Virus record (IMG/VR): IMGVR_UViG_3300044500_000007
Coordinates: 1-41,450 of that record
Strand: one strand, 5' to 3'
From: a virus
Taxonomy: Duplodnaviria > Caudoviricetes
Length of the DNA stretch: 41,450 bases
Positions 3,760 to 27,091 of the stretch are shown one piece after another. Both the position numbers and the translations under genes were made by a program. Positions within the stretch are counted from its first letter, which is position 1. Every line of letters begins with the position of its first letter. A model generated the notes under the pieces. The model searched no databases and was not told the origin of the DNA. It saw nothing but the letters and a program-made list of their open reading frames with translations.

Positions 3760-4058
3760 GACCGCGCCCTCAGCATGCTTTCGAGCTTGTCAAACCGCTC
3801 GCCCATCTCCTCGAAGCGGGTATTGAGCCAATCGCGTTCACGTCGATTCCAGTGCATGTCGGTATCGGCAAAATGCCGTTGATTGATGGCATCCTGTTCG
3901 CGGGCCTGCTTGTAGTGGAAATCATGATGTTCTTCATGACGCTCCAAAATCGCGGAATGGTTCTTCTGCGTCGACTCGATCTTGCCGGACCAGCGGGAAA
4001 TCAGAGCGATGTTGACGATGAACGAAAGGATGAGGGCGCCAACGGCTATCCATAGCAT
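3756..4058 (-). CDS. membrane-anchored coiled-coil protein, lysis-associated
   Basis: N-terminal TM, helical C-terminus, ATGA-coupled to the DUF5675 gene. Confidence 0.65.
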   Translation of the reverse strand: MLWIAVGALILSFIVNIALISRWSGKIESTQKNHSAILERHEEHHDFHYKQAREQDAINQRHFADTDMHWNRRERDWLNTRFEEMGERFDKLESMLRARS

Positions 4059-12014: not shown

Positions 12015-12288
12015 CGTCCATGGCCTCATGAATCAGAATGATGGCTTTGAAAATGTCGCGCTTTGGAATTTCGGGATGCGCTTTCTTAATCTTCGTGGCC
12101 ACGCGACGAAACTTGAGCCATGAATCCCCGAGCACGTCGGAGGAACCATGTACCAAGCCCGCTTCTTCGGTGCACAGTGCCGTGATTTCATCCGCGAAGG
12201 GCAGAACGCTGCCAGGGATTATAAATTCTGGGCTGTATCCGATTTTGGAAAGCACCCAGAGACAGAATCGAGCAATTAGGTTTTTCAT
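12007..12288 (-). CDS. hypothetical protein
   Basis: ATGA-coupled to the upstream gene within the late operon. Confidence 0.6.
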   Translation of the reverse strand: MKNLIARFCLWVLSKIGYSPEFIIPGSVLPFADEITALCTEEAGLVHGSSDVLGDSWLKFRRVATKIKKAHPEIPKRDIFKAIILIHEAMDGV

Positions 12289-13709
12289 GATGGATCAATC
12301 GAGGCGAGCGGGTTGCCCGCAGCGGTCGTAACGGCGGCATCCCACAGTGGTGTGGTGTCATCCACGTCATAGACCGTCAGCGTACCGCCTGCAATCTCCT
12401 GTTTGTTGCGCAGCGCAGCCAGGGCGTGTTTCACCAGACGGCCTGCCGAGGATCCTCCTGAAACATTTCGAGCGATGATGGCATCGGCGATTTCATTTGC
12501 CGCCGTGGCGGCAAGCTCGGAAGACCCGATCGCATCCGCCGCAATCGCCGTGGCGTCAATAGCTCCCGCAGCGAAGGACGCCGCCGCAATCCCACCAGCC
12601 GCGACCGAACCCACTGAGCCCGTGACGTTGCCGCCCACGTTACCCGTCACCGAACCGACCGCCCCTGTCACGGAGCCCACTGCCCCTGTCACGGAGCCCA
12701 CTGCCCCTGTCACGGAGCCGACCGAACCACTGAGATTTCCTGTGATATTGCCCGCGATGTCCATCGTCTGGTTTGGCAGGTCGATATTGGTCAGCCCCGC
12801 TCCGGCAACACCGATTCGAGCGAAGGCGTCCCCCGTCTGTGGCGTGTTGCCGGTATAGGTGGTGACTGTGTCGGTGAGCACGACTCCCTGTACTTTGTTC
12901 GTTGCAGGGTCGTACCCATCATCGGCAAAGTCTTTCAGGTCGGTTGCGGACTGAGCAACGGCGAGAATTTCATCCATCGATGATTTCATCTTGCCACCTG
13001 CGGTAAGTGCCGCCGGTAGACGCGCTTGAATATCATCCGTGTCCGCTTGTATAGCGTCCGTGTTTGCCTTGCTTGCCAATGTGGCCGTTGTCGGGAACGT
13101 GATCGTACCGCCGTTCACGACGGGATTGGTCTTGATCGTCTCCACATCCACCTTTTGGGTGGTCGCAATGGTCGTGCCGGTCAGCGCGAGAGATGTGGTC
13201 GGCGATCCGACATTGGCCCAATCCAGCCCCGCCTCGCCGGTTGCCGAAACGTCCAGCGTACGGCCCGCTGTTGTGGGCACCAGCGGTAGCGCGACGGTGG
13301 AGAGCCCATTCCAAAGCTTCACATTCACATCCGGAGTGCCTGCTGTGCCAGGAGTCAGCCAAGCGGTGCCGAGCAGCTTCTTCACATCTGCAGCAGCGGG
13401 CACCGTCGAGAATTCACCGATGACATACCCCACTGCGGAGACCGAATCGACCGTGCCCGTCGTGATGACCAGGGTATATTCTGTGTCTGCCGCATAGCCG
13501 TTGCCGCCCGAGGCCACCACACGCACGTTATGCAATCCGGTCACACTATCGAAATCGACCGTCAAGGTGATCCCCGCCGTGAGCTGGGTTGTGGAGTTTC
13601 CCGGATATGCCGAAATCACCGGAGATCCCGCGAGCGTAATGGGGGCGCCCGTCGAAGAAATCGTTGTAAATTTCAGGTCGAGCGTGTCGCCGAGTGTAAT
13701 CCGTCTCAT
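12285..13709 (-). CDS. accessory virion / fibre-like protein
   Basis: Thr/Gly/Ala-rich, Ig-like N-domain, GSVTGAV repeats, AIAADAIGSSELA repeats, LRNK...TLTVYD.DDTT C-terminus. Confidence 0.65.
   Translation of the reverse strand: MRRITLGDTLDLKFTTISSTGAPITLAGSPVISAYPGNSTTQLTAGITLTVDFDSVTGLHNVRVVASGGNGYAADTEYTLVITTGTVDSVSAVGYVIGEFSTVPAAADVKKLLGTAWLTPGTAGTPDVNVKLWNGLSTVALPLVPTTAGRTLDVSATGEAGLDWANVGSPTTSLALTGTTIATTQKVDVETIKTNPVVNGGTITFPTTATLASKANTDAIQADTDDIQARLPAALTAGGKMKSSMDEILAVAQSATDLKDFADDGYDPATNKVQGVVLTDTVTTYTGNTPQTGDAFARIGVAGAGLTNIDLPNQTMDIAGNITGNLSGSVGSVTGAVGSVTGAVGSVTGAVGSVTGNVGGNVTGSVGSVAAGGIAAASFAAGAIDATAIAADAIGSSELAATAANEIADAIIARNVSGGSSAGRLVKHALAALRNKQEIAGGTLTVYDVDDTTPLWDAAVTTAAGNPLASIDPS
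12605..12730 (-). repeat. 21-nt tandem coding repeat (GSVTGAV)
   Basis: gcccctgtcacggagccc repeated three times plus degenerate copies. Confidence 0.85.
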
Positions 13710-14566
13710 CGAACTATCATCCCGTGGGACCTCCCGGCAGCACCACTGTTTCCCCCACTGCTACTGACGCTGGCCGTGACGGTCGGAGCAAACAGGGTAA
13801 TTGTTAAATTCTTCGTGCTTGGCGTCACAAACTTGTTGTCGCTGACGGCGACGGTCGGCGCAAAGTTCGTCGTTGTCAGTGACTTTGTACCCGGAGTCAA
13901 CCCGGTATCGGTCGGCGGATGAACCGCAATGGTATAGGCACGCCATGCGGCAGAGACATCCACGTTGAATGCCCCCGCATCTTCACTGGCCGCATTGAGA
14001 CTTCGAGAGGCCGCAAGAATCAATCCGCCGAGATTGGTTCCCGCAACCCCACAGGACTTCTGCGTCGGCGGATTCGGGAGGTAATTCGTGGGCGGCGTGT
14101 TGCCCCACGTATCGTCGTCGGCCTCTTCCCCCGCCATCCCCGCGAAACTAATCCATAGGTAATCCTTTGCGCCGCCTGTGGGTGTGCAGGTGGTGGCATC
14201 GGGTCCCGTCGAGGTGCCCGTGGCCACCGTGCTCAGTTCGGGAGCCCGAACGCTGAATTTCTTATTCCCGGTAATCCGATAGGCAATGGTTGCCGATCGG
14301 GTGCTGGTGGTGTGCGTGAAGGTCACCGTCGAACCTTCCGTGCCGTCCGCGTCCCGATACCAAACGGCGATGCCGTTACCGAGATTTTCGTCTAGTAGTT
14401 CCGTCCATCCGGCGAGGGAATCGAACGTGCCCGAGGTCGAGCCTTTATCCAGCAAAATCAGGATCCCATCGCCCGACGCAATGCTTGCAGGCAGCGTGAT
14501 GACATGCGACGTTCCCGCCGTGCTGACGGCGGTCTCGGCGGTGGTTTGGATTACTGGAAATGCCAA
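13706..14566 (-). CDS. accessory virion protein, beta-rich
   Basis: HVITLPASIASGD, VWYRDADGTEG motifs typical of phage surface proteins. Confidence 0.6.
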   Translation of the reverse strand: MAFPVIQTTAETAVSTAGTSHVITLPASIASGDGILILLDKGSTSGTFDSLAGWTELLDENLGNGIAVWYRDADGTEGSTVTFTHTTSTRSATIAYRITGNKKFSVRAPELSTVATGTSTGPDATTCTPTGGAKDYLWISFAGMAGEEADDDTWGNTPPTNYLPNPPTQKSCGVAGTNLGGLILAASRSLNAASEDAGAFNVDVSAAWRAYTIAVHPPTDTGLTPGTKSLTTTNFAPTVAVSDNKFVTPSTKNLTITLFAPTVTASVSSSGGNSGAAGRSHGMIVR

Positions 14567-14576
14567 TGTTGTTAGA

Positions 14577-14999
14577 TCAGGCGACTGTCAGCACGCCGCT
14601 TGCATGAATCGTGATTGTTAATGTGTTGCCATCCGTTACCGTGACATCGGCTGGCGTGGAATCGAGAAGGAAATACGCCATGACCCGCCCGCTGACTTCA
14701 TAGAGCACACCGAATCGAGCGACAATGGAACCGCCCGAGGCCGTCCACACCGCAGGGTCGGTGGAATCAATCGTCACCGTCGTTGTGCCGGAACGCGAAA
14801 TCGTGACGGACTTTCCACCCGTTGAGTAGCCGTTGGCGGCGGCGTGCTCGTTGGTAACTCCGGCATAGGTCGTGCTCGACGCGCCAATGTTGGACGTGGA
14901 TAGAAAAAGCGCGAGCTTATACGTATCCGCATCAAGCCATTCTCCGTTAGTGAGTTTCGTTCGCCCTTCGTCCGTCAGTACCCAAGCGCCAGCTGCCAT
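14577..14999 (-). CDS. conserved small phage structural protein
   Basis: DTYKLAL, NGYSTGG, WTASGGSIVAR, LLDSTPADVTV motifs; AAGGA RBS. Confidence 0.65.
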   Translation of the reverse strand: MAAGAWVLTDEGRTKLTNGEWLDADTYKLALFLSTSNIGASSTTYAGVTNEHAAANGYSTGGKSVTISRSGTTTVTIDSTDPAVWTASGGSIVARFGVLYEVSGRVMAYFLLDSTPADVTVTDGNTLTITIHASGVLTVA

Positions 15000-15010
15000 G
15001 TTTTATTCCT

Positions 15011-16099
15011 TTATTCGATTTCTTTTTCACGAACCACGAACCCGCCGCCGATTCGGGAGCGGAAGCCAGAACCAGCACCGACCGCAACTTCCGCCCCCAT
15101 CGACCAGAATGCCGAGTTATTGATCAGCGCGTTGTACTTTGTGGTGATCCAATCCTGAGAAATAACCGTATCGGAAAGCTGCGTAACGTCCAGCACACAA
15201 CTTCTTGCTGAAAACCCGCTGTTGGGATCATGTCCAATCTCCGCAGTTCGCCCAGCCGTATTCCATGTGCCGTTCGTGGTATTGGTCGATCCAATTTGCG
15301 TACCATTGAGATACAGTTTTGTGGCCGGTGCTGCGGAATCCCAAGTCAAGTCAATGATATTCCACGCATTCTGGTTCAGCGTGTAGGCTCCGGAATTGAC
15401 AATGACACGGCCATCCGACCCGCCATTGATCCAACCGCAATAGAGCTTGTTATCGGAATATTTCAGGCCCTGGATCAGAGCTGTACCCCCGGCATCACTC
15501 GCATGCAGACCGATGGCATGAGCCACGCTATCCGTGGATGCCCATGATGGCTTCACTGCAAATGAAAAGCTGCCCGTCGTCGGAATAGCGCCGGAACCAA
15601 TCGTGATCGTGTCGGAATCATTAGCGCCAAAACTCGCCCCGCCATCCTCCAAACCCGTTCCCGCCGTGGGTCCGCTTCCACCCGCTGTTCCATTTCTCGC
15701 ATTCGACGTGGAGTCATTCAGGTTCAGAGTCGAACCGTCCGGCATGAGCAGCACTTGTTTGTACTGCGTCGGCCATACCGCATTGCTGCTGCCATCGGAC
15801 GTGAGTGCCGAATCCCCATAACCGAAATAGATGACAAGGCCATCGACGGCATTGACCAACACCCAACCAATCCAAATCCCGTTGACGCCATCATAGAATT
15901 CTTTGACGTAGGTTAACGGAGTCGCCAGTGATGCGTCGGAATAGGGCCGAATGTCATTTCCGTTGTCGGCATGCCCACCATTCGCAATGGTCTTGATGCG
16001 CGCGTCGCTGATAGACACCGGCACAATAAAACTGCTTTGCGTGCCTCCAGCGACCTGGCCGGTCTGGATTGTGAAGGGGGTTTTGTAGGTCTGCGCCAT
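15011..16099 (-). CDS. DUF2341-like plus LamG/ConA-like domain virion protein
   Basis: DIRPYSD...IYFGYG...VW N-domain; DSTSNARNGT; LTWD...KLYLNG...DWI.T.YN LamG pattern. Confidence 0.72.
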   Translation of the reverse strand: MAQTYKTPFTIQTGQVAGGTQSSFIVPVSISDARIKTIANGGHADNGNDIRPYSDASLATPLTYVKEFYDGVNGIWIGWVLVNAVDGLVIYFGYGDSALTSDGSSNAVWPTQYKQVLLMPDGSTLNLNDSTSNARNGTAGGSGPTAGTGLEDGGASFGANDSDTITIGSGAIPTTGSFSFAVKPSWASTDSVAHAIGLHASDAGGTALIQGLKYSDNKLYCGWINGGSDGRVIVNSGAYTLNQNAWNIIDLTWDSAAPATKLYLNGTQIGSTNTTNGTWNTAGRTAEIGHDPNSGFSARSCVLDVTQLSDTVISQDWITTKYNALINNSAFWSMGAEVAVGAGSGFRSRIGGGFVVREKEIE

Positions 16100-16113: not shown

Positions 16114-18621
16114 TTATGGAATCGGATTGGACTGATAACTACTGGAAATTCCATCCGCGACTGGGATCGTCCGAATGTCGGGCAACAAGGCGCTGCCCTG
16201 AGTGCCGAGCTGCATGAGGTAATCTTGAGCAATGGTTTGGCCCGCCGTCATCACGATATTAGCCGCCGCATATCCCCAGCGTAAGAAATTCTCCCAGCTG
16301 TGCACGGTTCGGCCTCCGTGATAGGGATTGTCGGCTCTCGGGATCAGCAAGATGCTGGCCTTTGAGAAGTCCGTATTGGGTGCCGGCGTGTTGGGACTCC
16401 AATAGGCGAATACATACACCTCCTCCACTTCGGTGTAATTGTATGGATTCTGGCTCGCCGTTGCGCGAATCCATCCCGCCGTATCTGGAGGGATGGAACC
16501 AGTCCCGCCTGGATTCTGCAATCCCATAATGGCGTTGAACCATGTGTCAATCGTCTGCGGATTCTGTGCGGTGATTTCGGAGTGGATGTAGATTCTGCCG
16601 TCCGGATAGATCGTGTATTTCACCTTTCCGGTGATATTGGAGAGCACTCCGGTTGATCCGGCAATCGGATGCGATATGGCCTCAAGGACGATTCGAGCCG
16701 CCGTGTTTTCCAAAATCTGGAATGAACGCGGACTGGACGGAAAGTAATATTTCGCCGCACGGGTATAGAGCTTCGGATCGTTCGGCGTGGTTCCATAAAA
16801 CACCTGCTGGAATAGCCCCGGCTCTGCGACGGTGATGTCGCCTTGATTCACGCCATAGGCCGGACCCGCAAGATTGTTCTGCGCCGATGGGTCGTTGACC
16901 AGATCGTACCACTGACTTAATCCTGCATTGTCACCTGCCTCAAACACGAGTCGAAACTGGCCTGACGATTCAATGGTGATGACCTGGTCGATGTTGCTGT
17001 CTGTAAGTATCAAGCTGCCTCCCGTATGTCCGGCAGGATTGGCCTGCCCGCTGTTTGCATCTACGATCCAACCCGAGGTGTCCACCACCTCGAAGCTATC
17101 GGATGGAATCACCTCGATCAGAATGTGTAGATCGTTATCATCCCAACGGGAATCGGGCACGCCTTGAAAAAACCAGTCGCCCCCGTTATCCGATAGCAGC
17201 GCCCCGTATTTTTTGAATGTATTCAGGATGATCTTATTCGTTGGGGAGTATCCGGATGTGTCGAACCCAGATTTCAATCGCACGCGAAGTCCAAGCGGAG
17301 GATTGTTGAGTCCACCAGAGTTGGCGTCGTGTCGAGCTGGCCAGATGTGCGGACCATGGGTCAGGTCCAAAGTGAACCGCAACGCATGGCCAAGATCGCC
17401 TGTAATTCCGGTGGGATCTACAGCCAATCGAGACTGGATTTCATCGTAGCGCACCAGCCCCGGCAGCACGGGAAGTCCTGCGGCATCCGCAGAGGTGAAG
17501 CCGTCCGGACGCAGGGCATTGGAGTCCAGATCCCAATGAGCGTAAGACGCTGCCATGATCGATCCATCGGGCTGACGGATCGCTTTATAAAGTTCGTGCA
17601 ATAGATGCGTATCGGTGTCGAGCAAAAGCAGATGGTGATCGCCTTCGGTCGTCCACGTCGGCGACGATACCGGATCGCCTTCGATGACCACGTTGGGCGG
17701 GATCGGCAGGAAACCTGTGGTCTGGTCTCCTCCGGGCAGTGCATCGCTTTCCGATGCATAGGTCGTCACGTTCACACGGCGCGGCGGTATCGAGTTTCCA
17801 GCAACCGTGTTCACCGGAATCCCATTGAGTAAGCCGTTATAGATCGTTCCGAAATCCGGATGCAACGGATGTCCGCCGTGATCGTTGATCCCGTCGATTG
17901 GCCGCTGAACGGGTAGAGCATTCACCGGTGTATTCCAAACGTTATCCGGAGGGAAGACCGTAACAATTCCAGGCGGAGGATCGCTTACCGTAATGAGAAC
18001 ATCGTCGCTGGTGGACAACGAACCATCACTGACCGTCAGACGCAACGTATAGACTCCGGCAAGCGTAAAGGACGCCGACGTGTTCAGAGCGCTTGCGCTG
18101 CCGAATGTGACCGAGGCCGGGCCGCTAACGACGCTCCACGCCACCGATAGCCAGCCTCCATTGGGCAGTCCATCATCGGTGGCTGTACCGGATAAATTGA
18201 CAGACGCGGGCAGCGTGATTGCCTGATCCGCGCCCGCATTCACGACGGGAGCGACATTGGCCGGAGGCGTCACGACGGTAAACACAACGGAGTTGGACTG
18301 TGCGTTCCCCACTTGAACATGGACGCCACCAGTCACTGCGCCCGATGGCACTTTCACGGTCAGCTGCGTTGGCGTTGCCGCCAGAACGATAGCCTGCACG
18401 GTTCCCGCCGCGTTATGGAAGAAGACCTTATTGGCTCCCAGTGATGATTTAAATCCAGAGCCAGACAAAATGACGCTCTGTCCGATAGAACCGCTAGGTG
18501 GATTGATGTTTGCTAGAAATACGTTTGGCATAGTTGTGACCAGTACGAATGTTCGTGCATCGATTGAGATGGCGGTCATGGCTGCAACCGTGAACGCCAA
18601 AATGGCGAATATGCGTTTCAT
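16114..18621 (-). CDS. 835-aa signal-peptide protein: IPT/TIG + PKD-like + uncharacterised bacterial secreted domain + beta-sandwich
   Basis: Start re-called at MKRIFAILAFTVAAMTAISIDA; INPPSG.IGQSVILSGSGF (IPT); NVAPVVNAGADQ...GVYTLRLTVSDG (PKD-like); TSADAAGLP.LPGLVRYDE domain. Confidence 0.75.
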   Translation of the reverse strand: MKRIFAILAFTVAAMTAISIDARTFVLVTTMPNVFLANINPPSGSIGQSVILSGSGFKSSLGANKVFFHNAAGTVQAIVLAATPTQLTVKVPSGAVTGGVHVQVGNAQSNSVVFTVVTPPANVAPVVNAGADQAITLPASVNLSGTATDDGLPNGGWLSVAWSVVSGPASVTFGSASALNTSASFTLAGVYTLRLTVSDGSLSTSDDVLITVSDPPPGIVTVFPPDNVWNTPVNALPVQRPIDGINDHGGHPLHPDFGTIYNGLLNGIPVNTVAGNSIPPRRVNVTTYASESDALPGGDQTTGFLPIPPNVVIEGDPVSSPTWTTEGDHHLLLLDTDTHLLHELYKAIRQPDGSIMAASYAHWDLDSNALRPDGFTSADAAGLPVLPGLVRYDEIQSRLAVDPTGITGDLGHALRFTLDLTHGPHIWPARHDANSGGLNNPPLGLRVRLKSGFDTSGYSPTNKIILNTFKKYGALLSDNGGDWFFQGVPDSRWDDNDLHILIEVIPSDSFEVVDTSGWIVDANSGQANPAGHTGGSLILTDSNIDQVITIESSGQFRLVFEAGDNAGLSQWYDLVNDPSAQNNLAGPAYGVNQGDITVAEPGLFQQVFYGTTPNDPKLYTRAAKYYFPSSPRSFQILENTAARIVLEAISHPIAGSTGVLSNITGKVKYTIYPDGRIYIHSEITAQNPQTIDTWFNAIMGLQNPGGTGSIPPDTAGWIRATASQNPYNYTEVEEVYVFAYWSPNTPAPNTDFSKASILLIPRADNPYHGGRTVHSWENFLRWGYAAANIVMTAGQTIAQDYLMQLGTQGSALLPDIRTIPVADGISSSYQSNPIP

Positions 18622-18646
18622 GATGCGTCTATCCAGAAGTTCGGCA

Positions 18647-19006
18647 TTACGTCTGCCTCGAAATGGCTTTGTAGGCAACCACGGAAGCGTAAATCGTCGA
18701 TACTGCATCCAGTGTTGCAATGCTGACGGCTTCATTGTCGGGGAATACGATGGGCATGGGGAACGGGTGAATCGATCCGCCCTTGGCAGCAGGTGCCTGC
18801 AATGGGCCGAAGGTCTTACTGGCCGAAGTCAGATTCAGGCCCGTTCCCGACGTGCTATTGGAATTAAAGATGGAACAGTAAACGATGCACCAGCTGAACC
18901 CGTTGCCCGGCTTCGCCAGCAATGGGACTTCTGCTGTTAGTCCGGCATTGTTCGCCGATGGGGACTCGGAGCCCGGATGCGGCGGTGGTGTGTTGTATCC
19001 GCTCAT
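18647..19006 (-). CDS. small beta-rich virion/decoration-like protein
   Basis: ATGA-coupled, in operon, jelly-roll-like composition. Confidence 0.55.
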   Translation of the reverse strand: MSGYNTPPPHPGSESPSANNAGLTAEVPLLAKPGNGFSWCIVYCSIFNSNSTSGTGLNLTSASKTFGPLQAPAAKGGSIHPFPMPIVFPDNEAVSIATLDAVSTIYASVVAYKAISRQT

Positions 19007-19452
19007 TTTCGGTATGTCAGCACGCCGGTCACCGCCCCAGTTGCGGTCGTGATGCAGAGATCCTTGTCGTAGGCGCCGCTGTTGATGATGACCGCCCCCG
19101 CGCCGCCGTAGGCGACTGGCATTTCATCCGCTAGACGGATCGCGCCTGTCAAATTCACGGTACCTGTGCCGCACGTGGTTCCAGTTCCGATTTTGAATTG
19201 AGCCGTCGTCGCTAAGGTGTCGCCCGAGATCAGGAACCCGCAAATGCTCGGACTGGCGCTGGTTTCTCTTGGAATTAGAATCGCGCTGGTTCCAGAAGAG
19301 ACGGAGATGACCACGCTGTAGTCGCACCCTTGGCCCTGTGCATGAACGGGAACCGGCGACATCCACTCATGAGCCGGAATTCGTGGAGTGAGAAGTAGGG
19401 ATGCGGCAACTACCAATCCAAACAGAAATACTGAAATGTGTTTCATAGCCAT
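19003..19452 (-). CDS. signal-peptide protein with 4 Cys in the mature part
   Basis: MKHISVFLFGLVVAASLLL...VHA|Q; GTGTTCGTGT and DLCIT motifs. Confidence 0.7.
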   Translation of the reverse strand: MAMKHISVFLFGLVVAASLLLTPRIPAHEWMSPVPVHAQGQGCDYSVVISVSSGTSAILIPRETSASPSICGFLISGDTLATTAQFKIGTGTTCGTGTVNLTGAIRLADEMPVAYGGAGAVIINSGAYDKDLCITTATGAVTGVLTYRK

Positions 19453-19459
19453 TCTCCGA

Positions 19460-20188
19460 TTAGAAATTTCGGGACCTGAAGTCGATGGGATCGATACCTC
19501 GGTTTCCTTCGGAGGTCATCGAGATTTGATGTAACGAAATGCGTTGCGGCCTGCTGTTCGCGCTCTGGATCCGGGCGCGCCCATTGCGGGCAAAGTCGCG
19601 GGTGTCCTGAGAGACGGTTTTCCCGAACGATGGTGCCAGACGCAGCGCGAGGTTATAGAACAGGGCTTCCCGGTATCCGGGAGCGAGGTAGATCGTGGTG
19701 CTGAGGCTGGCCACGTCATTTAATGGTGTCGGCACATACAGCGCAATGGTTCCGTTTTCGGTCGCAATCGGCCAGGGATAGATCGTTCCCGCACCCAGAG
19801 GCGCCGTCATCGTCTTTTCATACCGGATTCCGGTCGGTCGCGTGGAGGTCAGCGCCTTGTTGCTGACCATTGCCCACTCTTCGTCATCGAAAATCGCCAG
19901 CGGCGATTCGTTGCCCGAGGCATCGACATAATTTGCGGCTGCAATGAAGTCGGGGCGCGCGATGTTCCACGTGGCACCCGTGGCAATCAGGAAGCTTGCA
20001 ACTGAAGCCGTGAGCGTGACCGTCGATCGCACCCAATGGTCGATCATCAGCTGTTCCAGCTTCCACAGGTCGATCATGGAGTTCAGCCGGCGTAAGCCGA
20101 GATCAAAGTCCGAGCCGCCCTGCTGCTCGAATGGCGAGTACGCGCCGATTTCTTCTAAAGCCTCACGGACGATGTCTTGTGCAATCAT
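19460..20188 (-). CDS. P22 gp4-like head-to-tail adaptor
   Basis: IVREALEEIGA, GLRRLNSMIDLW, PGYREALFYNLALRLAPSFG. Confidence 0.82.
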   Translation of the reverse strand: MIAQDIVREALEEIGAYSPFEQQGGSDFDLGLRRLNSMIDLWKLEQLMIDHWVRSTVTLTASVASFLIATGATWNIARPDFIAAANYVDASGNESPLAIFDDEEWAMVSNKALTSTRPTGIRYEKTMTAPLGAGTIYPWPIATENGTIALYVPTPLNDVASLSTTIYLAPGYREALFYNLALRLAPSFGKTVSQDTRDFARNGRARIQSANSRPQRISLHQISMTSEGNRGIDPIDFRSRNF

Positions 20189-20481
20189 GGGAATTGACTC
20201 ACTACTTCAAATTCGCGTTCACTGGCCCCAGCGCCGGTTCCCGTGCCATAGCCACGGGTGTAATAAATCCCGACCTCGGACGCATCCATATCGACGTAAT
20301 ACTGTCCGACGGCTAGCTGCACCAGGCCTGCATCGACCGCGAAAACCAAGGTGGTGACCGTTCCGCCCGCGCCCCGCTTCCACTTGAAACCCACGGCAAC
20401 GGGATCGACCAAGCTGTTATCGGAGAGCAGCCGGAATTCAAACGACACCCGAACGGTAGAACCCTTGACGTATGTATTCAT
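20185..20481 (-). CDS. small Ig-like virion protein
   Basis: G.TVRVSFEF..LVDP...GQYYVD...G.YY.R..GTG; coupled on both sides. Confidence 0.6.
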   Translation of the reverse strand: MNTYVKGSTVRVSFEFRLLSDNSLVDPVAVGFKWKRGAGGTVTTLVFAVDAGLVQLAVGQYYVDMDASEVGIYYTRGYGTGTGAGASEREFEVVSQFP

Positions 20482-20648
20482 TGCGCGTCGTTCATGAAGC
20501 AGTCGTAGCGGATCGCGTCCGTAATCGTTACCCCGGAGGCTCCGGAAGCCACAGGACCGACGGTTCCTGCCGCCCCGCCCGGCTGCGGATAGGTGAAGCC
20601 CCCCGAGCCACTGACACCGCCAGGAGTGATCGGATCAAAGGATGACAT
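20478..20648 (-). CDS. 56-aa Gly/Pro-rich peptide MSSFDPITPGG...FMNDAQ (not in ORF track)
   Basis: Starts directly after the upstream stop codon and ends in an ATGA overlap. Confidence 0.55.
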   Translation of the reverse strand: MSSFDPITPGGVSGSGGFTYPQPGGAAGTVGPVASGASGVTITDAIRYDCFMNDAQ

Positions 20649-21557
20649 TTAGTGTTGGGGTTTTGAGGTCGCCTGGGACTGCCGGTAGCCCGTGGCGTTG
20701 CACACGATGCTCACATCGTTGGCGTTGGTTTCCGACTGCGTGAGCGTGATGTAATACTCCCCGTGTCCGATTTCGGCCTCCGTCGTGTCGTTGGTCGTCG
20801 CATACGCCGCATGGTCCTTCGATATTTCGCAAGTGATCGCGCCCGTGGTCAGCCCCGTTGTTGGAACTCCGGTCGTGTTATCGAACATGAAGAAGTGAAA
20901 CTCCTGGGAAGCCACATTCTTCTGTAGTCCATAGAGTCCGGTCTGAAACTCGGTCGTCACGTCGGGGTCAAACTTCGATGCCGTGAAGGCGTTCGACGCA
21001 ATCGAGGCGGTGGTGATCACGGCAGACGCCATCGCCGACACATTGGCCTCCGCACGATGCGCGGATGGGTCATAGCCGGTATCGGCAAAGTCCTTGAGAT
21101 CCGTTGCCGACTGCGTCACATCCCCGAGTTTGGAGATATTCACATCGAGCACGTCTGCGCCGAAGAGCGCGTCATAGACATTAGCCGGATAGACAAAGCA
21201 GGTCCGGAAGACAAAGAGAGCACCCGAAACATGCACGTCGATTTCCAGCATGCCGACTGTGGCCGTGTCGGTCGCATCGAGGGTGATCCGGTAATTGCCA
21301 TGCTCTTCGTGGGTCGCACCGCCCGAGTTTTTGGACGCCCAATTCGAACCGTTGACCTTCAGTCGTATATCGGTATTGGCAATGGTCAGACCCGTCTTTT
21401 CGGTATCGCCGTCTGAAGAGTCCAGAAACGGGCCGATGTTGACTTCCTGAGTCGCGGTCGATTGCTTGAGGATGCAGCCGCCTTGAGCCCATGCTAATGA
21501 TGGCAGTGCTACAAACGAAAAGATCAGAATTCCAAGGCAGACTACAAATCGTTTCAT
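20649..21557 (-). CDS. signal-peptide accessory protein with two Ig-like modules
   Basis: MKRFVVCLGILIFSFVALPSLAWA|Q; LKQSTA.Q...GPFLDS.DG...GNY.ITLDATDT.T.G motif. Confidence 0.72.
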   Translation of the reverse strand: MKRFVVCLGILIFSFVALPSLAWAQGGCILKQSTATQEVNIGPFLDSSDGDTEKTGLTIANTDIRLKVNGSNWASKNSGGATHEEHGNYRITLDATDTATVGMLEIDVHVSGALFVFRTCFVYPANVYDALFGADVLDVNISKLGDVTQSATDLKDFADTGYDPSAHRAEANVSAMASAVITTASIASNAFTASKFDPDVTTEFQTGLYGLQKNVASQEFHFFMFDNTTGVPTTGLTTGAITCEISKDHAAYATTNDTTEAEIGHGEYYITLTQSETNANDVSIVCNATGYRQSQATSKPQH

Positions 21558-23383
21558 CGGTTTCTCCGTTGCCGCAGATAGAAAGAAATTCTAGGTAATG
21601 CTGTATCTACATCGTTTGCTACGTCGCCGATATCATCGATCCATGCAGTATGCGCATCGGTGCCCGTATCGGTAAACTTGATGCCGGTAATACTGGAGTA
21701 CCCTGTATAAGAATCAACCCATGAACTATAGGACCCACCATCAAGAGCGACACGGGCTTGATTGGGGTGGCCTACTAGATCAAAATTGACTTCAACCAGA
21801 TATGAGTGATTGATCGTATAGCCAGCAAGTAGCGTTGTGCCTTGAATCGTGATAGCCCCAGCGCTGTTCATTGTAATAAACACTCCGCCATTGCCAGCCT
21901 CATCGAGAAGGGATGCGTAGAAATACCCATTCGTAATCGACTGCGACATTCTAAAGAATCTCGAAAAGACTCCGGTCTGGGCGGTGAATAGCCGCCTCGC
22001 TTCGTCAAGTCCAGATGCGGCGTTAAATCGTGAGGACTTTCCACTCATCCAAGCCGGAGAATTCTCTACCGTTACCGTTCCGTTCAGCAATTGCCAGCTT
22101 TGAGTAAATCCACTTCCCAGGTTGAGTCCGTCAATACTGGTCCCTGCCGAGTAGGAATCAAAATCCTCATCCAATGGATCAGTTGGATTTGAACCGCTTG
22201 GAGTTTCATAGGCCCCTATGGATGGTGGGTCCGGTCGCGTGACGCCATCAAAGTCGACCGTCACTTCCGTAACGGCCACTCCAGCTGCTAACGCATCACT
22301 GGTATCGAGCAGATGGAAATCATGGCCGGAGACATTAACGAAATCCGGATCGGTCGTCAGATTGTTAGAACTATCCGTGGATGTGCCGTCATCGAGAATC
22401 GTGTCGTTGCCGTTCAGATAGAGAATATTGTTTTTGATGCGGTTATTGCTTCCGCCGATTATCCATACGCCACGGTCACTATTTGCGTAAATCGTGTTGA
22501 AGGCTATAAGGCAATCATCCGTTGTGACGGCAATACCGCCGACGCCGGAAGCCGTCAGGCCATTGTTATACATGACATTGTTATAGACTTCAGAGTTTAC
22601 CCCGTCGCGAATGACGAATGCGGCGCCGTAGGAATCGTGCACGATATTGTTTCGATAAATGTTGTTGTCCAGGCCACCGGCTCCGTTGTATTGATGGATA
22701 GCCGCCCCACCCTGTACAGAATTGCCAGTATTGAAAACTTCATTTCCTTCAACCAGGCTATCTTCACCACCCATATAGATGCCATGCGGGGGGAATCCAT
22801 CCGCGCTCGGATTGGTATTGCCGCAATTCCCGATAATGTTGTTGAGGATGAAGTAATGGTGGTTTCCGGTCTTTCCGATAGTGCCACCCCGTCCGAGGCC
22901 AACACAGTATTCGGGGCCGAGCGCGGTGCTATTTTGAAGAGTGATATAAGACGAGCCCTCTCCACCAAAACCGGAAAAATCATCACCGGCGCCAAGCGCC
23001 CAATACATAGTGTCGTCACCAAGGAGGACAAGCCCGTCGATGACAATGAAGTCGCGGTTCTGAATAGTAATGATGGCATTGAATGCGCTGACACCAGTCA
23101 GCGTAACTGCACGGTTATTGATTGCTCGAACTATGGTCGGAGAGCCCGCTGATGCCCCACTCACAATATTGGTGATGGATTCTGCGTAGGTTCCATCATT
23201 GATCAGGAGCGTATCCCCGGCCCCGGATGACAGCAGCGCCAAGCCTGCTGCAATTGTCGTCTTGCCATGCGCAAGAGACAAGCCTGTGGTGTTATCGCCG
23301 GTCTTGGATGTGTAGAAGGTCGTCGCGAGGCTCGGACGCGAGAGTGCCAGCACCACGCCGATGAGGAGCAGGAGGCGTTTCAT
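21554..23383 (-). CDS. signal-peptide right-handed beta-helix protein (pectin-lyase-like) with C-terminal ConA-like domain
   Basis: MKRLLLLIGVVLALSRPSLA|T; GDTLLINDGTYAE; Asn ladders (NNIYRNNIVHD); DP.FV...DFHL...DFDG.TR...IGAYE. Confidence 0.8.
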   Translation of the reverse strand: MKRLLLLIGVVLALSRPSLATTFYTSKTGDNTTGLSLAHGKTTIAAGLALLSSGAGDTLLINDGTYAESITNIVSGASAGSPTIVRAINNRAVTLTGVSAFNAIITIQNRDFIVIDGLVLLGDDTMYWALGAGDDFSGFGGEGSSYITLQNSTALGPEYCVGLGRGGTIGKTGNHHYFILNNIIGNCGNTNPSADGFPPHGIYMGGEDSLVEGNEVFNTGNSVQGGAAIHQYNGAGGLDNNIYRNNIVHDSYGAAFVIRDGVNSEVYNNVMYNNGLTASGVGGIAVTTDDCLIAFNTIYANSDRGVWIIGGSNNRIKNNILYLNGNDTILDDGTSTDSSNNLTTDPDFVNVSGHDFHLLDTSDALAAGVAVTEVTVDFDGVTRPDPPSIGAYETPSGSNPTDPLDEDFDSYSAGTSIDGLNLGSGFTQSWQLLNGTVTVENSPAWMSGKSSRFNAASGLDEARRLFTAQTGVFSRFFRMSQSITNGYFYASLLDEAGNGGVFITMNSAGAITIQGTTLLAGYTINHSYLVEVNFDLVGHPNQARVALDGGSYSSWVDSYTGYSSITGIKFTDTGTDAHTAWIDDIGDVANDVDTALPRISFYLRQRRNR

Positions 23384-23728
23384 TTACTCGGCCTCTTTGG
23401 CTTTCGCGAGTGCTTTCGCAATCATGGGAAGGGATTCCAGCGCCGCCACCCTAGCTTCCAGCGCTGCCAATTGATCTTCGGGAGACATCGGCATGACTGG
23501 CTCGGAAGCCGTGGCTGGCTTATCAAAAGACAGGCCTCGAGATTCGGCTTCCTCGCTGGAATCGACCAAGACGGTCTGACCGTTTGCGTTGTATGCAATA
23601 CGCGGCCAATCCTGCTGAATGAAATGCGCGGAATAGCCTTCGGCCTGAAGCTCAATCACGCGCTTCTCCGTGCTGGGATACTCGACCGTGCAGCCCTCTT
23701 TGTACATGGGTGGAAATTGCAGTTGCAT
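23384..23728 (-). CDS. hypothetical head-region protein
   Basis: AAAGG RBS, QFPPMY/WPRIAY internal repeat, short coiled coil. Confidence 0.65.
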   Translation of the reverse strand: MQLQFPPMYKEGCTVEYPSTEKRVIELQAEGYSAHFIQQDWPRIAYNANGQTVLVDSSEEAESRGLSFDKPATASEPVMPMSPEDQLAALEARVAALESLPMIAKALAKAKEAE

Positions 23729-23756
23729 GGAAATGCCTTTCTGAAGTGTTGAATTG

Positions 23757-23819
23757 GGGCGGGGCCGAGGAGACAGAGCCCCGCCCTCTCACGCTGCCGG
23801 GAGACAACCTTCAGCGCGA
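23757..23819 (-). other. two tandem stem-loops each presenting UGUCUCC
   Basis: Stems 23757-23765/23778-23786 and 23789-23796/23812-23819; GGAGACA on + at 23769 and 23800. Confidence 0.7.
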
Positions 23820-23826
23820 AACCGAA

Positions 23827-24681
23827 CTATTCCGGCAAGAGAGAAATAGTGATTACCATCCCCGTGACCGTATCGGTTGCCGCCGAAGCGTCCCAGGACA
23901 GACGATTTCCAGCCACTAGATGCAAGGCCGCCGTGGTTGATGTCAGCGTACCCACTACCGGAACACGGGTGGTCGATGTGAGGTCAAACGCGGTTGCCAG
24001 CAGGTCCGTACCCGCGCCTGGCGCATCGGTTGAGGTGTCTTTGACCACCTGTACCGATGCCGCCGTGTCTTCAATCGTGTTGTGGACTTCCGTGATGCCG
24101 ATGACCCGGTACGGTCGATCGGCCAGGAAACAGCTGGAATCCACATTCACAATTGCAGCCGTCAGTCCGACGCACTGCACAATCTTGATATTGCTTCCAG
24201 GCCCGCTGATGATGGTAAAGGAGTCGCCGACGCACTGATAACGGTTACCCGTTGGCACATGCACGGTGATGGTGTACCCCTGAGCGGTCGGGCTGCACGG
24301 CCCATACGGCTGAGCTTCCAGCATGACACCGGAGGTCGTGCCGCCGGTTGCCGCTCCTGCAGCCGGGATAAACGAGCCGCTGATCCCGATCGTGACCTTG
24401 GCCAGAGAGATATGCGGAGTCGCCAACCCTTTTTGCGCCCGAACGACGGGAATCGTCGTACCGGAAACATAAGTGGCGCCGACACGCATTAATTCCCGAT
24501 CGACAAAGATAAAACGACCCGCAACAACGCCCGTGGCAGATGTCAGCGTGATCGAGTTCTGCTGTGTGGTCGTGACCGCCGCGGCCAGAGTTGTTTCTGT
24601 CGTGGCAGTCTGCGAGAATCCGGAAACAGCGGCCATTAACGCCAGTGCTGCCCCCAGAATCAGTCTATTCAATACTTTCAT
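23827..24681 (-). CDS. 284-aa signal-peptide protein at the capsid-decoration gene position
   Basis: GGAG RBS then MKVLNRLILGAALALMAAVSGFS|Q; TTLAAAV...IFVDRELMRV...VVRAQ.G module; 4 Cys. Confidence 0.75.
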   Translation of the reverse strand: MKVLNRLILGAALALMAAVSGFSQTATTETTLAAAVTTTQQNSITLTSATGVVAGRFIFVDRELMRVGATYVSGTTIPVVRAQKGLATPHISLAKVTIGISGSFIPAAGAATGGTTSGVMLEAQPYGPCSPTAQGYTITVHVPTGNRYQCVGDSFTIISGPGSNIKIVQCVGLTAAIVNVDSSCFLADRPYRVIGITEVHNTIEDTAASVQVVKDTSTDAPGAGTDLLATAFDLTSTTRVPVVGTLTSTTAALHLVAGNRLSWDASAATDTVTGMVITISLLPE

Positions 24682-24745: not shown

Positions 24746-25996
24746 TTAGTTGCCAAGTGCGACCGCGACAGCAGCATCGGAGTACTTGACCCCGAGGCCA
24801 AACGCGCAGTCAATTCGTGTGATCCATTTGCGAGGCCGATTCTCGAAGGTTCGAACCATCGAGAGCGAGAGACCGGTTTCCGGATCCGTCCGAGTCCAGG
24901 AGACTTCGACCGATCCCGGCTTCGGCATCGGCAGATCGACGCCCACTAGGAATCCGAAATCCTTGGTCATCGCAAGGCCCACAGGTCCAATCTTGCCGTT
25001 GGGCGAAGTGGTTCCCGGCCACAGCACCAGGTCTGCGCCATTAGCCGGGAGGGCGTCCACGTTCTGGTACTTGGAACCCGGACCTTCAATGGCCGGATAG
25101 AAAGTGAATGCACCGGACGCGAAAGCGGAAGACGCTGCCGTTGCATCGTTCAATGCGGTAAAAACCTTCAGTCGCCGTGTGCTCTGACGGGTCATCACAT
25201 TGACGGCGTATACATTTTCAAGCGTAAACTTATCTCCACGCTTAACGGTGTCGCCGGTCGTCGCCGTCAGTGCCAGCGTGTTACCCGATTGCCCTGCCGA
25301 TGAGGTCTCCACGGTACCCGCCCATGTGCCGGCGGTATGGAGCTTCAGGTCCATCGACTCAATCCAGTCGAATCCGGCATAGCGATTGATAAAGCCTTCG
25401 CGGAACATCCGTGAGACTTCGTCCATCGGTCCCTGATACGGCAAGGCGGCGACGCCCGAAGACCCCATAGCGTCGGGAGTGATCAGCATTCCGCGCTTGC
25501 CAGGAGCCAGAAGGGACTGCTCGGCGATCCGGGTCCGCGCCCCGTTATAAGTGGTCAACGCTGTCGGGTTGGTCCCGCCAAGATTTCCGATGACGCCTGT
25601 GGCGTAGTCGGCCACATAGCGAGAGAGGATCAGATCGATATCGGTCTTGATCTGTTGAATGCGTGGCTTAATGATCTGCTCGGAGATTTCCGTTTCGGAT
25701 TTCTCCATCTGGAACATTTTTTCAATCGTGTCGTACTCAAAATCCGCGCCGACGATTTTATCGGCCACGATTTGAGTCGTGCGTCGGTCTGCCACATCTC
25801 CGACGTACTCCAACTGATTGCGGGTTACTCCGCGATCGGCATATTTCACGTTGAAGGTGTCACCGAACGCTTTCTTTCCGTTGAATTCCGGCTCATAACT
25901 GGTGTCGAAGAACTGGGGCATGACGGCCATATTCGTCAGCAAACGAATACACTCGTCCGCAACCCAGCCCGTGGTATAGGCGTGAGATCCAGGCAT
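24746..25996 (-). CDS. major capsid protein, P22 coat family
   Basis: 416 aa after scaffold; FGDTFNV, GD.FT..NV..VN, TRIDCAFG motifs. Confidence 0.88.
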   Translation of the reverse strand: MPGSHAYTTGWVADECIRLLTNMAVMPQFFDTSYEPEFNGKKAFGDTFNVKYADRGVTRNQLEYVGDVADRRTTQIVADKIVGADFEYDTIEKMFQMEKSETEISEQIIKPRIQQIKTDIDLILSRYVADYATGVIGNLGGTNPTALTTYNGARTRIAEQSLLAPGKRGMLITPDAMGSSGVAALPYQGPMDEVSRMFREGFINRYAGFDWIESMDLKLHTAGTWAGTVETSSAGQSGNTLALTATTGDTVKRGDKFTLENVYAVNVMTRQSTRRLKVFTALNDATAASSAFASGAFTFYPAIEGPGSKYQNVDALPANGADLVLWPGTTSPNGKIGPVGLAMTKDFGFLVGVDLPMPKPGSVEVSWTRTDPETGLSLSMVRTFENRPRKWITRIDCAFGLGVKYSDAAVAVALGN

Positions 25997-26020: not shown

Positions 26021-27061
26021 TTACCGTCCCTGCTTCATGCGTGCAATGTCGCGTTCGTTGGCCAGGTCTATCATTCGCCGGGTGGCCCCGGGGTCGCCGC
26101 GTTGGGCTCCCTCTCGTGCAGCTTCCAGCGGATCCTTCACAGGCCCCGAACGTCCTCCCACATCGGCAGGGGGTTTCGGCGCGTTTTGGAGAGTCCTTTT
26201 GTGGTCGATGACAGGAGCGGCGGTCTCGAAACCAGCCTCGATCTTCGTGAGGGCGGCGACTTGGCGAACCGGCGAAAGCGCGGCAATCTTCATAATCTCG
26301 TCGTGATGCGACCCGAGGTAATAGGCGAGTTCCGCGTTGGATTCCGACTCTGCAAGGTAGGCACGCATAGCGTCCGTACAGATGGGCCATTTCGTGTCCC
26401 ATACCTTTTCCTGATAATCGGGGTACTTGGCGCGGGCTGCTTTTTCTCGTTCCGCCCACTGTGATTCAATAGTCTCGTTTCGCTTGTTCTGCTCCGCAGC
26501 TTTTTGCTCTTCGCGGGTCCTCGCTTCACGCTGCGTGTGCTTTTGGTCGTATTTCCAATCGGCCAGCTTCTCTTCGTAGATATCGAGGGCGGCTTCCCAC
26601 TTCTCGATGGCGTCTTCGCCGCTAAACTCCGAAGCTTTGGGCCGGATGGGACGACCATCGGCGGTAGTGTTTGCAGGATTCGTCGTCTCAGGGGCTGGCT
26701 TGTTCAACTGCTGCCGCAAACGTGCAATTTCTGCATCGCGTGCCGCAGAGTCGCGCTCAAGCTGGCGTTTTTCAGCGGTGAGGCGTCCGATCTCCCGATT
26801 CATCGTCGCTTGCGTGATCGGCTTTCTGGGTTTCGAGGGGTCCTGTCCAACTTTATCCGGGTCTGACTCCGGGGCATGTTCTGGATCTGCGTCTTTCGAC
26901 GTGTCCGCAGAGGGGAACTCGCCAGTCAGCTTCCAATTGGTGCGCTGCTCGGGTGTCAGCTTCGAGAGCCGATCACTCAAAGGCGCTTCGACAATGGGAG
27001 TCTCGACGGCGGTTTCCTGGGTTGCGGTTGACGGGTCCGCAGCAACAATTGCGTCAGGCAT
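26021..27061 (-). CDS. scaffolding protein
   Basis: GGAGG RBS before MPDA; charged coiled coil; ELAYYLG.H...IAALSP.RQ...L.KIE, APKP motifs. Confidence 0.82.
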   Translation of the reverse strand: MPDAIVAADPSTATQETAVETPIVEAPLSDRLSKLTPEQRTNWKLTGEFPSADTSKDADPEHAPESDPDKVGQDPSKPRKPITQATMNREIGRLTAEKRQLERDSAARDAEIARLRQQLNKPAPETTNPANTTADGRPIRPKASEFSGEDAIEKWEAALDIYEEKLADWKYDQKHTQREARTREEQKAAEQNKRNETIESQWAEREKAARAKYPDYQEKVWDTKWPICTDAMRAYLAESESNAELAYYLGSHHDEIMKIAALSPVRQVAALTKIEAGFETAAPVIDHKRTLQNAPKPPADVGGRSGPVKDPLEAAREGAQRGDPGATRRMIDLANERDIARMKQGR

Positions 27062-27091
27062 TGGGGCCTCCAATGAAGGTGATGGGTCAAT

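What the first reader, a model, noticed from the sequence alone, without database searches (positions are those of the whole stretch)
16114..24681. Five Sec-type signal-peptide genes embedded in the virion morphogenesis operon
Seen: starts at 24681 (MKVLNRLILGAALALMAAVSGFS|Q), 23383 (MKRLLLLIGVVLALSRPSLA|T), 21557 (MKRFVVCLGILIFSFVALPSLAWA|Q), 19452 (MAMKHISVFLFGLVVAASLLL...VHA|Q) and 18621 (MKRIFAILAFTVAAMTAISIDA|R). Each has a basic n-region, hydrophobic core and small-residue cleavage site. They are co-oriented and tightly packed among the coat, gp4-like and gp10-like genes. Three have exactly 4 Cys in the mature part, and the same three would start with Gln. Established: P22-type virions assemble in the cytoplasm, and exported phage proteins are normally lysis or moron products. 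Inference: a set of late proteins is exported, folds with disulfides in the periplasm, and either decorates virions at lysis (extracytoplasmic maturation) or remodels the host surface.
Basis: partly seen in the sequence, partly recalled or inferred. Interest (0 to 1): 0.85.

Follow-up and report, generated by a model that had tools for sequence, protein, structure and literature searches.

The report
Phage outer parts carry export signals
An uncultured P22-like phage, likely of Acidobacteria, has five particle-operon genes that begin with secretion-type leaders, and for three of them relatives keep both leader and paired cysteines, so these proteins are predicted to fold in the periplasm and likely join the particle as outer decoration and fibre parts when the cell lyses, instead of being built in the cytoplasm like the rest of a tailed phage.

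Summary
Observation confirmed. The window is a P22-type podophage contig; five late genes (SP1-SP5) start with Sec-type leaders (rule-based test; SignalP not available). Export is well supported for SP1, SP3 and SP4. In loci chosen by coat protein alone, the gene after the coat is either the SP1 family with a leader (62 of 86) or a leaderless protein with a capsid-spike fold (24 of 86), and the two swap repeatedly on the coat tree. Mature SP1 has an even cysteine number in 86 of 87 sequences (coat: 30 of 55). In SP3, leader and partner cysteine come and go together. SP1 folds like capsid cement plus a tail-tip module; relatives put the same leader on tailspike head-binding domains. Best reading (0.6): periplasm-folded outer virion parts that join the particle at lysis. 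Virion incorporation is not shown; the binding prediction could not be run. SP5 is host-like, has no cysteines and may act on the host surface. Cultured test systems exist (Tunturi 1, an Acidicapsa prophage). My paper searches found no account of this route. The scan noted the same pattern before on other DNA.

The parts
23827..24681 (-). SP1, 284 aa: leader (1-23), tail-tip/capsid-insertion-like module (24-102), Cys linker (C129-C150), cement-like jelly roll (about 160-284); first gene after the coat
   Evidence: fold; family, leader, Cys parity
21554..23383 (-). SP2, 609 aa: leader (1-20), right-handed beta-helix, C-terminal domain shared with a leader-bearing tail-module protein of a long-tailed phage
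   Evidence: PF13229, E 6e-8; L146, 34% over 251 aa
20649..21557 (-). SP3, 302 aa: leader (1-24) added to a widespread leaderless phage domain; C28/C120 and C243/C286; translationally coupled to SP2
   Evidence: shares a 27-aa motif with leaderless 12285-13709
19003..19452 (-). SP4, 147-149 aa (start 19446 more likely): long leader ending VHA|Q, small domain with four invariant Cys
16114..18621 (-). SP5, 835 aa: leader, TIG and PKD domains, host-type domain (about 212-545), C-terminal beta-sandwich resembling glycoside-hydrolase accessory domains; no Cys
24746..25996 (-). P22-type coat protein, no leader
   Evidence: PF11651 E 1e-23
27155..29383 (-). P22-type portal, no leader
   Evidence: PF16510 E 1e-93
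26021..27073 (-). scaffolding protein, no leader
   Evidence: phrog_8865 E 3e-21
19460..20188 (-). gp4-like head-tail adaptor, no leader, lying between SP3 and SP4
   Evidence: phrog_12985, phrog_637
10408..11916 (-). gp10-like head closure / tail hub, no leader
   Evidence: phrog_578 E 1e-67
12285..16099 (-). four leaderless fibre-like genes (LamG 362 aa, phrog_644 140 aa, 286 aa, 474 aa): the cytoplasmic counterpart cassette
2785..4058 (-). probable lysis genes: membrane protein, DUF5675 protein (endolysin role recalled, not tested), holin-like protein; no lipoprotein spanin found on the late strand

Best explanation
Five late-operon genes of this P22-type phage begin with Sec-type leaders, and the SP1, SP3, SP4 and probably SP2 products are predicted to be exported and cleaved, to fold with disulfide bonds in the periplasm, and likely to dock on the finished capsid and tail as decoration and fibre parts once lysis opens the inner membrane. 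Shown by sequence and calls: leaders, operon position, conservation of leader, +1 Gln and even Cys numbers, exchange with a leaderless capsid-spike-fold protein in the same slot, fusion of SP1's domain and of like leaders to tailspike head-binding domains in relatives. Inferred: cleavage, disulfides, pyroglutamate, the meeting at lysis and binding to the particle. The core machine (portal, scaffold, coat, gp4, gp10, ejection proteins) stays cytoplasmic. SP1 is most likely the capsid decoration; SP2 with SP3 a coupled receptor-binding or depolymerase unit; SP4 a small accessory. SP5 is the odd one: a captured host-type secreted mosaic, more likely acting on cell-surface sugars, on or off the particle.
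For: (1) Coat-selected loci, chosen without regard to leaders: of 97, 86 have room after the coat; 62 carry an SP1-family gene, all with a leader (57 by rule, 5 by eye, two of those with an Asp in the core), 24 carry a leaderless ~145-aa protein, none carries both as separate genes. The two states change at least 4 times on the coat tree (starred branches). (2) The leaderless occupant's best fold match in two searches is the Pseudomonas phage Pa223 capsid spike (9ny6; Z 9.3, rmsd 2.5, 99 aligned; Foldseek E 0.002), and L050/L051 fuse leader + SP1 N-module to that very domain (E 3e-36). (3) SP1 model (pLDDT 83): C-domain matches cement proteins of KHP40 (Z 8.7), GP4 (8.5), Pam1 (8.2); N-module matches a VP1 capsid insertion (Z 10.4) and tail-tip proteins, the latter also by sequence (Chi E 2e-6). 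(4) Even Cys number in 86 of 87 mature SP1 sequences against 30 of 55 coats; +1 Gln in 86 of 90 rows; other leader+Gln late proteins 17 of 19 even, core proteins 122 of 239. (5) SP3 domain, mature-only search, best 120 of 445: 14 with leader, 13 of them with a new N-terminal Cys, 0 of 106 leaderless; P0180, nested in the leader clade, lacks the leader and three of the four Cys. (6) SP4, mature-only search: 39 of 41 with leader, four Cys in 33 of 33 aligned. (7) SP1 full family in 1 of 401, SP4 in 0 of 401, SP2 in 0 of 151 Acidobacteriota genomes searched: phage families, not host genes. (8) 11 of 11 ORFs with a Pam1/PBR31-type tailspike head-binding domain in my loci have a leader in front of it; the cultured PBR31 tailspike has none; L160 joins leader + head-binding domain + SP1's C-domain (45% over 107 aa). 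(9) SP2/SP3 homologues sit right behind tape measure plus one gene in two long-tailed phage contigs. (10) GenBank records mark leader-bearing phi10:1 gp091-094 and phi18:3 gp087 as structural by MS/MS. (11) No promoter or terminator signal above chance sets the five apart.
Against: No call shows any of the five on a particle. The jelly-roll match is modest and carbohydrate-binding modules score Z 7-7.8 on the same domain; Foldseek found nothing at E<=0.001 in the PDB. The window itself has no head-binding domain and carries four leaderless fibre-like genes that could supply host recognition without export. 24 of 86 close relatives manage with a cytoplasmic post-coat protein. Further leader-bearing genes are no more common beside SP1 (10 of 36 loci) than beside the leaderless form (3 of 12), with some false calls in both. 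SP5 is host-like (26 of 151 genomes) and has no Cys; SP2 has an odd 3. The Cellulophaga proteins are not clearly homologous to the five (one marginal hit, E 0.01) and MS detection in a preparation can be carry-over; I could not read that paper. Related sequences are not independent, so the counts overstate significance.
Confidence: 0.6

Rival explanations
1. The proteins are exported but never join the particle: they act on the host envelope late in infection (cutting or binding capsule to ease release, masking receptors, or acting as free decoys). Most likely for SP5, possible for SP2.
For: SP5's middle domain is 38-51% identical to host proteins in Acidobacteriota genomes, several with leaders; its C-terminal part resembles glycoside-hydrolase accessory domains. 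SP2 is a beta-helix with a weak chondroitinase-like hit. SP1's jelly roll also resembles lectin and CBM domains. A membrane glycosyltransferase gene follows coat-SP1-SP4 in some relatives.
Against: A host-acting gene has no reason to hold the first slot after the coat in 62 of 86 loci and to trade places with a capsid-spike-fold protein. Leaders stand directly in front of tailspike head-binding domains in 11 of 11 cases. SP1, SP2 and SP4 were not found as host genes.
Confidence: 0.26
2. The leaders are uncleaved anchors or transient tethers: the proteins stay in the inner membrane and capture maturing particles there or aid a membrane-bound exit.
For: SP4's leader is long with a Pro-rich stretch; two SP1 homologues have an Asp in the core; no lipoprotein spanin was found.
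Against: Ala at -1 and Gln at +1 are conserved while the rest of the leader varies freely, as expected of cleavage sites; SP1-SP5 have no further transmembrane segment.
Confidence: 0.08
3. The working virion form is cytoplasmic, made from a second start or by leaky export; the exported form is a side product.
For: SP3's domain is leaderless in 106 of 120 homologues, so it can work without export.
Against: No conserved internal Met in the SP1 or SP4 alignments; even Cys numbers and coupled gain and loss of leader and Cys point to an oxidising compartment.
Confidence: 0.04
4. Chance hydrophobic N-termini or mis-called starts.
For: My rule gives false calls in shadow frames (16 among 1040 starts); SP5's leader has no homologue support (one search found no relative).
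Against: Conservation across dozens of divergent homologues for SP1, SP3, SP4 and one for SP2.
Confidence: 0.02

Closest known systems
P22-like podophage morphogenesis (P22, Sf6, cyanophage Pam1, Xanthomonas phage PBR31)
   Same: Gene order and families of portal, scaffold, coat, gp4-like, gp10-like and ejection proteins; a small accessory gene straight after the coat.
   Different: PBR31's post-coat protein and tailspike have no leader; here the post-coat protein and three or four fibre-like proteins do. The window has no recognisable head-binding tailspike.
Capsid cement/decoration and spike proteins (KHP40 7dou, GP4 8h89, Pam1 7eel, Pa223 spike 9ny6)
   Same: SP1's C-domain fold (Z 8.2-8.7), the coat-adjacent slot, and the fold of its leaderless substitute (Z 9.3). 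Late addition of decoration to finished heads is recalled for P22/L Dec, T4 Hoc/Soc and lambda gpD.
   Different: SP1 adds a leader, a tail-tip-like N-module and conserved Cys pairs; no sequence match to a cement family; capsid binding untested.
Leader-bearing 'structural proteins' of Cellulophaga phages phi10:1 (gp091-094) and phi18:3 (gp087), GenBank KC821618, KC821620
   Same: Leaders ending before Gln on tail-region proteins annotated as found by MS/MS: 4 of 12 and 1 of 10 MS-annotated genes examined.
   Different: Bacteroidota host, few Cys, no clear homology to SP1-SP5; the records do not mention leaders; the source paper could not be read.
Cultured Acidobacteriota podophage Tunturi 1 (PP887698; PMC11924767)
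   Same: gp12, gp13, gp14 (annotated tail spike), gp16 and gp17 carry leaders with 2-32 Cys; gp17 has a weak match to SP2 (E 6e-9).
   Different: No SP1 homologue found. The paper's main text has no hit for 'mass spectrometry' and its 'signal' hit shown is in a reference title (passages only; supplements not read).
Filamentous phage coat proteins pIII/pVIII (recalled)
   Same: Virion proteins made with Sec/YidC leaders; pIII forms disulfides in the periplasm.
   Different: They stay membrane-anchored and the particle is extruded without lysis; SP1-SP5 have no membrane anchor after cleavage and the particle is a cytoplasm-built tailed phage.
Morons and exported lysis proteins of tailed phages (recalled)
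   Same: Phage genes with leaders inside late operons; SP5 fits this best.
   Different: No own promoter/terminator signal above chance, translational coupling to virion genes, virion-type folds and fixed position for SP1.

Membership tests
P22-like podophage late operon | P22-type portal, coat, scaffold, gp4/gp10-type neck, ejection genes in order | tested here: met
P22-like podophage late operon | tailspike with N-terminal head-binding domain | tested here: inconclusive
   no hit in the window with a profile built from relatives; a divergent anchor is not excluded
Sec/SPI substrates | basic n-region, hydrophobic core, small residues at -3/-1 | tested here: met
   rule-based; conserved in homologues of SP1-SP4; SignalP not available
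Sec/SPI substrates | actual export and cleavage | not testable with these tools
   needs N-terminomics or reporter fusion
Capsid cement/decoration protein (SP1) | gene next to the major capsid gene | tested here: met
   window; 13 of 13 motif-selected loci; 62 of 86 coat-selected loci
Capsid cement/decoration protein (SP1) | cement-type fold | tested here: inconclusive
   Z 8.2-8.7 to three cements, but 7-7.8 to carbohydrate-binding modules; no Pfam/PHROG cement hit
Capsid cement/decoration protein (SP1) | binds the mature capsid | not tested
   the complex-prediction queue was full
Moron | own promoter and terminator within the late operon | tested here: inconclusive
   sigma-70 scan at or below chance; other promoter types not covered; gaps mostly -4 to 25 nt
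Moron | sporadic, host-derived gene | tested here: not met
   for SP1: fixed slot, 1 of 401 host genomes and that one the prophage. Met in part for SP5
Filamentous-phage-type exported coat proteins | membrane anchor retained after leader cleavage | tested here: not met
   no transmembrane segment after residue 30 in SP1-SP5
Tailspike depolymerase (SP2) | right-handed beta-helix | tested here: met
   PF13229 above cut-off
Tailspike depolymerase (SP2) | trimeric, virion-bound, cleaves polysaccharide | not testable with these tools
   needs bench work

The most novel reading that the evidence does not exclude
A large group of tailed phages builds its particle in two compartments: head, neck and ejection proteins in the cytoplasm, and capsid decoration, tailspikes and fibres in the periplasm, where they gain disulfides, an N-terminal pyroglutamate and in some lineages phage-encoded O-glycosylation, the two sets meeting only at lysis. 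Individual proteins switch route in evolution by gaining or losing a leader together with their partner cysteines.
Probability: 0.5. Interest if true: 0.9.

Novelty: categorically new. Interest (0 to 1): 0.78.

Why it matters
Tailed-phage particles are held to be assembled wholly in the cytoplasm (textbook knowledge, recalled). If decoration and receptor-binding proteins are routed through Sec, host export and disulfide machinery become phage dependency factors, lysis becomes an assembly step, and signal-peptide filters misfile many receptor-binding proteins as morons. The label 'categorically new' refers to this route and holds only if virion incorporation is confirmed; the parts themselves belong to known structural kinds. 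It is directly testable: Tunturi 1 is in culture (PMC11924767) and Acidicapsa dinghuensis 4GSKX carries a prophage with a leader-bearing SP1 and tailspike.

Tried and rejected
Coat-SP1 complex prediction: never ran, the queue was full; this says nothing on binding. Single-protein locus scans with coat, portal and SP5 found no relative in viral contigs; SP1 had no match among cultured phages, nor had the leaderless class. Profile comparison of the leaderless class with SP1's own C-domain was negative (probability 0.1): they share the slot and a fusion, not that domain. Sequence searches of the PDB gave nothing useful for the leaderless class, SP4 or SP5. The search behind '98 of 100 SP1-like hits have leaders' used a profile that included the leader, and three of the 100 are N-terminally incomplete, one of them falsely called; I rely on the coat-selected count instead. 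The idea that SP1-bearing phages export more of their other late proteins was not borne out (10 of 36 against 3 of 12). My first greedy gene map picked shadow ORFs and was redone. The SP3 tree is a quick tree on 105 columns, with six residues trimmed from leader-bearing rows only. Host: not established; 10 of 17 genome loci are labelled Acidobacteriota, 16 of 17 are bins, and the window's coat is on a long branch; cluster look-ups gave no organism names. In a sample of the Acidicapsa genome 12 of 22 rule-called host proteins had Ala/Gly-Gln near the cleavage region against 2 each for Glu and Asp, though my neutral site caller put Gln at +1 in only 3: weak support for a host Gln preference. Paper searches (listings and abstract starts) found no account of exported virion parts in tailed phages; passages read in PMC11924767, PMC4642752, PMC5723332, PMC5837995 and 10.64898/2026.10.24.761521 do not describe it. 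Most subscription papers and all supplements were outside what I saw.

Full report
Setting. The window is a whole 41,450-nt virus record. The minus strand carries terminase, P22-type portal (PF16510), scaffold, coat (PF11651), gp4-like and gp10-like neck genes, ejection genes and probable lysis genes. The nearest cultured coats are only 24-28% identical. I call the five leader-bearing genes SP1 (23827-24681), SP2 (21554-23383), SP3 (20649-21557), SP4 (19003-19452) and SP5 (16114-18621).

Observation. The N-termini are as described. SignalP was not available; my rule called 6 of 49 genes, the five clearly and one early gene marginally, and gave 16 false or internal calls among 1040 possible starts. 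The genes are interleaved with leaderless virion genes, most gaps are -4 to 25 nt, and a promoter/terminator scan is at chance, so they read as part of the late transcript.

SP1. A profile search found 6277 cluster representatives at E<=0.001, many matching one domain only; of the 174 proteins then in hand, 100 had SP1's N-module and Cys motif and 98 of those were called leader-positive, whereas 2 of 56 proteins with only the C-domain were. That search included the leader, so I repeated the test on loci chosen by coat alone: all 17 genome loci and the best 80 of 394 viral loci. One had no usable coat call and 10 end within 600 nt of the coat. Of the other 86, 62 have an SP1-family gene next, all with a leader (57 by rule, 5 by eye), and 24 have a leaderless ~145-aa protein; by distinct coats the split is 52 to 19. 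The states change five times on a FastTree of coats, at least four forced by well-supported branches. The leaderless protein folds like the Pa223 capsid spike, top in both searches (Z 9.3), and L050/L051 carry leader + SP1 N-module fused to that domain (E 3e-36). SP1's own model (pLDDT 83) matches cement proteins of KHP40, GP4 and Pam1 in its C-domain (Z 8.2-8.7) and capsid-insertion and tail-tip modules in its N-domain (Z 8.4-10.4; sequence support E 2e-6). These Z values are modest and lectin-type domains follow at 7-7.8. Mature SP1 has an even Cys count in 86 of 87 sequences against 30 of 55 coats, and Gln at +1 in 86 of 90 rows. The full family was found in 1 of 401 Acidobacteriota genomes, the prophage itself; three others matched the N-module only.

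SP3. A search with the mature domain only gave 445 hits; among the best 120, 106 begin directly at the domain and 14 have a leader. Thirteen of the 14 have a Cys just after the cleavage site together with the Cys at the domain's end; none of the 106 has the first, 50 have the second alone. Twelve leader-bearing rows and P0180 form a group with SH-aLRT 98 in a quick tree; at least two changes are forced. P0180 lacks the leader and the equivalents of C28, C243 and C286. Leader and disulfide partners therefore appear and vanish together, which is the best evidence that export is real. The rows are related, so this is a few events, not 120 trials.

SP4, SP2, SP5. SP4: 39 of 41 mature-domain hits have leaders and four Cys are invariant in 33 of 33 aligned; look-alike clusters are viral; 0 of 401 host genomes. 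Of 18 SP4 loci fetched I mapped 13, and several place it beside coat, SP1, gp4 or tailspike genes. SP2: beta-helix; 0 of 151 host genomes; its C-domain and leader recur in L146, where it is followed by an SP3 homologue right behind tape measure plus one gene; L148 has an SP3 homologue in the same position. SP5: TIG and PKD domains, then a domain matched in 26 of 151 Acidobacteriota genomes (this tally includes G029, flagged unpublished; 25 of 150 without it), then a sandwich resembling glycoside-hydrolase accessory domains; no Cys, and no phage relative found.

Wider context. A tailspike head-binding domain (Pam1 7eeq E 0.002; PBR31 tail spike 47%, E 6e-19) occurs in 11 ORFs of my loci, two of them copies, and each has a leader in front of it (read by eye); PBR31's does not. 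L160 fuses leader, head-binding domain and SP1's C-domain. The window has no such domain. In cultured Tunturi 1, 7 of 28 genes examined were called; gp12, 13, 14, 16 and 17 look genuine, gp18 and gp34 probably not. In Cellulophaga phages, 4 of 12 (phi10:1) and 1 of 10 (phi18:3) examined genes annotated as structural by MS/MS have leaders; this lead came from earlier scan notes. A PMT_2/TPR membrane glycosyltransferase gene follows SP4 in L140-142, L151 and L155 but is absent from the window.

Mechanism. Shown: leaders, position, conservation, Cys parity, exchange with a capsid-spike-fold protein, fusions to virion anchors in relatives. Inferred: Sec export and SPI cleavage; disulfides; pyroglutamate (known for Bacteroidota from the abstracts of PMC5837995 and PMC10653852; the former's text has no hit for Acidobacteria); docking on particles after holin action mixes cytoplasm and periplasm. 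That decoration proteins and P22 tailspikes can add to finished heads outside the cell is recalled, not checked. No lipoprotein spanin was found; if the outer membrane lingers it would give time for docking, which is speculation. Against: no direct particle evidence, leaderless fibre genes in the same operon, a quarter of relatives with a cytoplasmic post-coat protein, SP5's host-like make-up. The coat-SP1 prediction could not be run.

Host. 10 of 17 genome loci are labelled Acidobacteriota, including the one isolate; 16 are bins. The window's coat has at most 42% identity to any of them and a long branch, so the host is likely, not known.

Novelty and verdict. Nine paper searches and passages from five papers gave no account of Sec-routed outer parts in tailed phages; the library lacks most subscription papers and I read no supplements. 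The scan has noted the pattern on other DNA many times; that is not independent support. Export about 0.95 for SP1, SP3, SP4; virion incorporation about 0.6. Interest 0.78.

Noticed in passing
L005:10206-11570 (-), same in L004: The P22-type coat ORF has no Met at the usual start; the in-frame start gives about 50 extra N-terminal residues with a hydrophobic segment, as if the coat itself had a membrane-type leader.
   Followed up: no
L140:10384-12054, L151:2501-4213, L155, L141, L142: A multi-pass PMT_2/TPR glycosyltransferase gene directly after SP4 (and after coat-SP1-SP4 in L140 and L151); it could glycosylate the exported Ser/Thr-rich proteins. Not in the window.
   Followed up: partly
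L161:14151-14960 (Xanthomonas phage PBR31 gp35): A 'putative structural protein' right after the tailspike of a cultured proteobacterial phage carries a clear leader.
   Followed up: no
L026:11294-12316 and 15479-17599: Prophage in the isolate Acidicapsa dinghuensis 4GSKX with leader-bearing SP1 and a leader-bearing tailspike with 14 Cys: a ready test system.
   Followed up: partly
window 35113-37170 (-): Replication-type gene with an intein (PF14890, E 6e-12).
   Followed up: no
window 6085-6558 (-): Endonuclease VII/HNH gene inserted between two ejection-protein genes.
   Followed up: no
window 1993-2457 (+) and 2785-4058 (-): Weak Rz-like hits (E 4e-4) fall on an early-strand gene; no lipobox protein on the late strand, so the outer-membrane step of lysis is unexplained.
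   Followed up: partly
window 21554-21620 (-) and L146:9850-9910: SP2 and its L146 homologue share a basic C-terminal tail that overlaps the ribosome site of SP3; part of the conservation may be that site, part a possible attachment motif.
   Followed up: no
P0008, P0011, P0044-P0168 (many): A large leaderless family of ~445-aa proteins made of three copies of SP1's C-domain; P0016 joins that domain to a weak Phage_cement_2 match (E 0.0025, under cut-off).
   Followed up: partly
L144, L156: SP4 homologues and other leader-bearing genes also occur in the virion operons of phages with a different capsid family (PF20911), so the pattern is not confined to P22-type heads.
   Followed up: partly
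window 20482-20648: A 167-nt gap after SP3, the largest in the operon, may hold a small ORF of under 60 codons.
   Followed up: no
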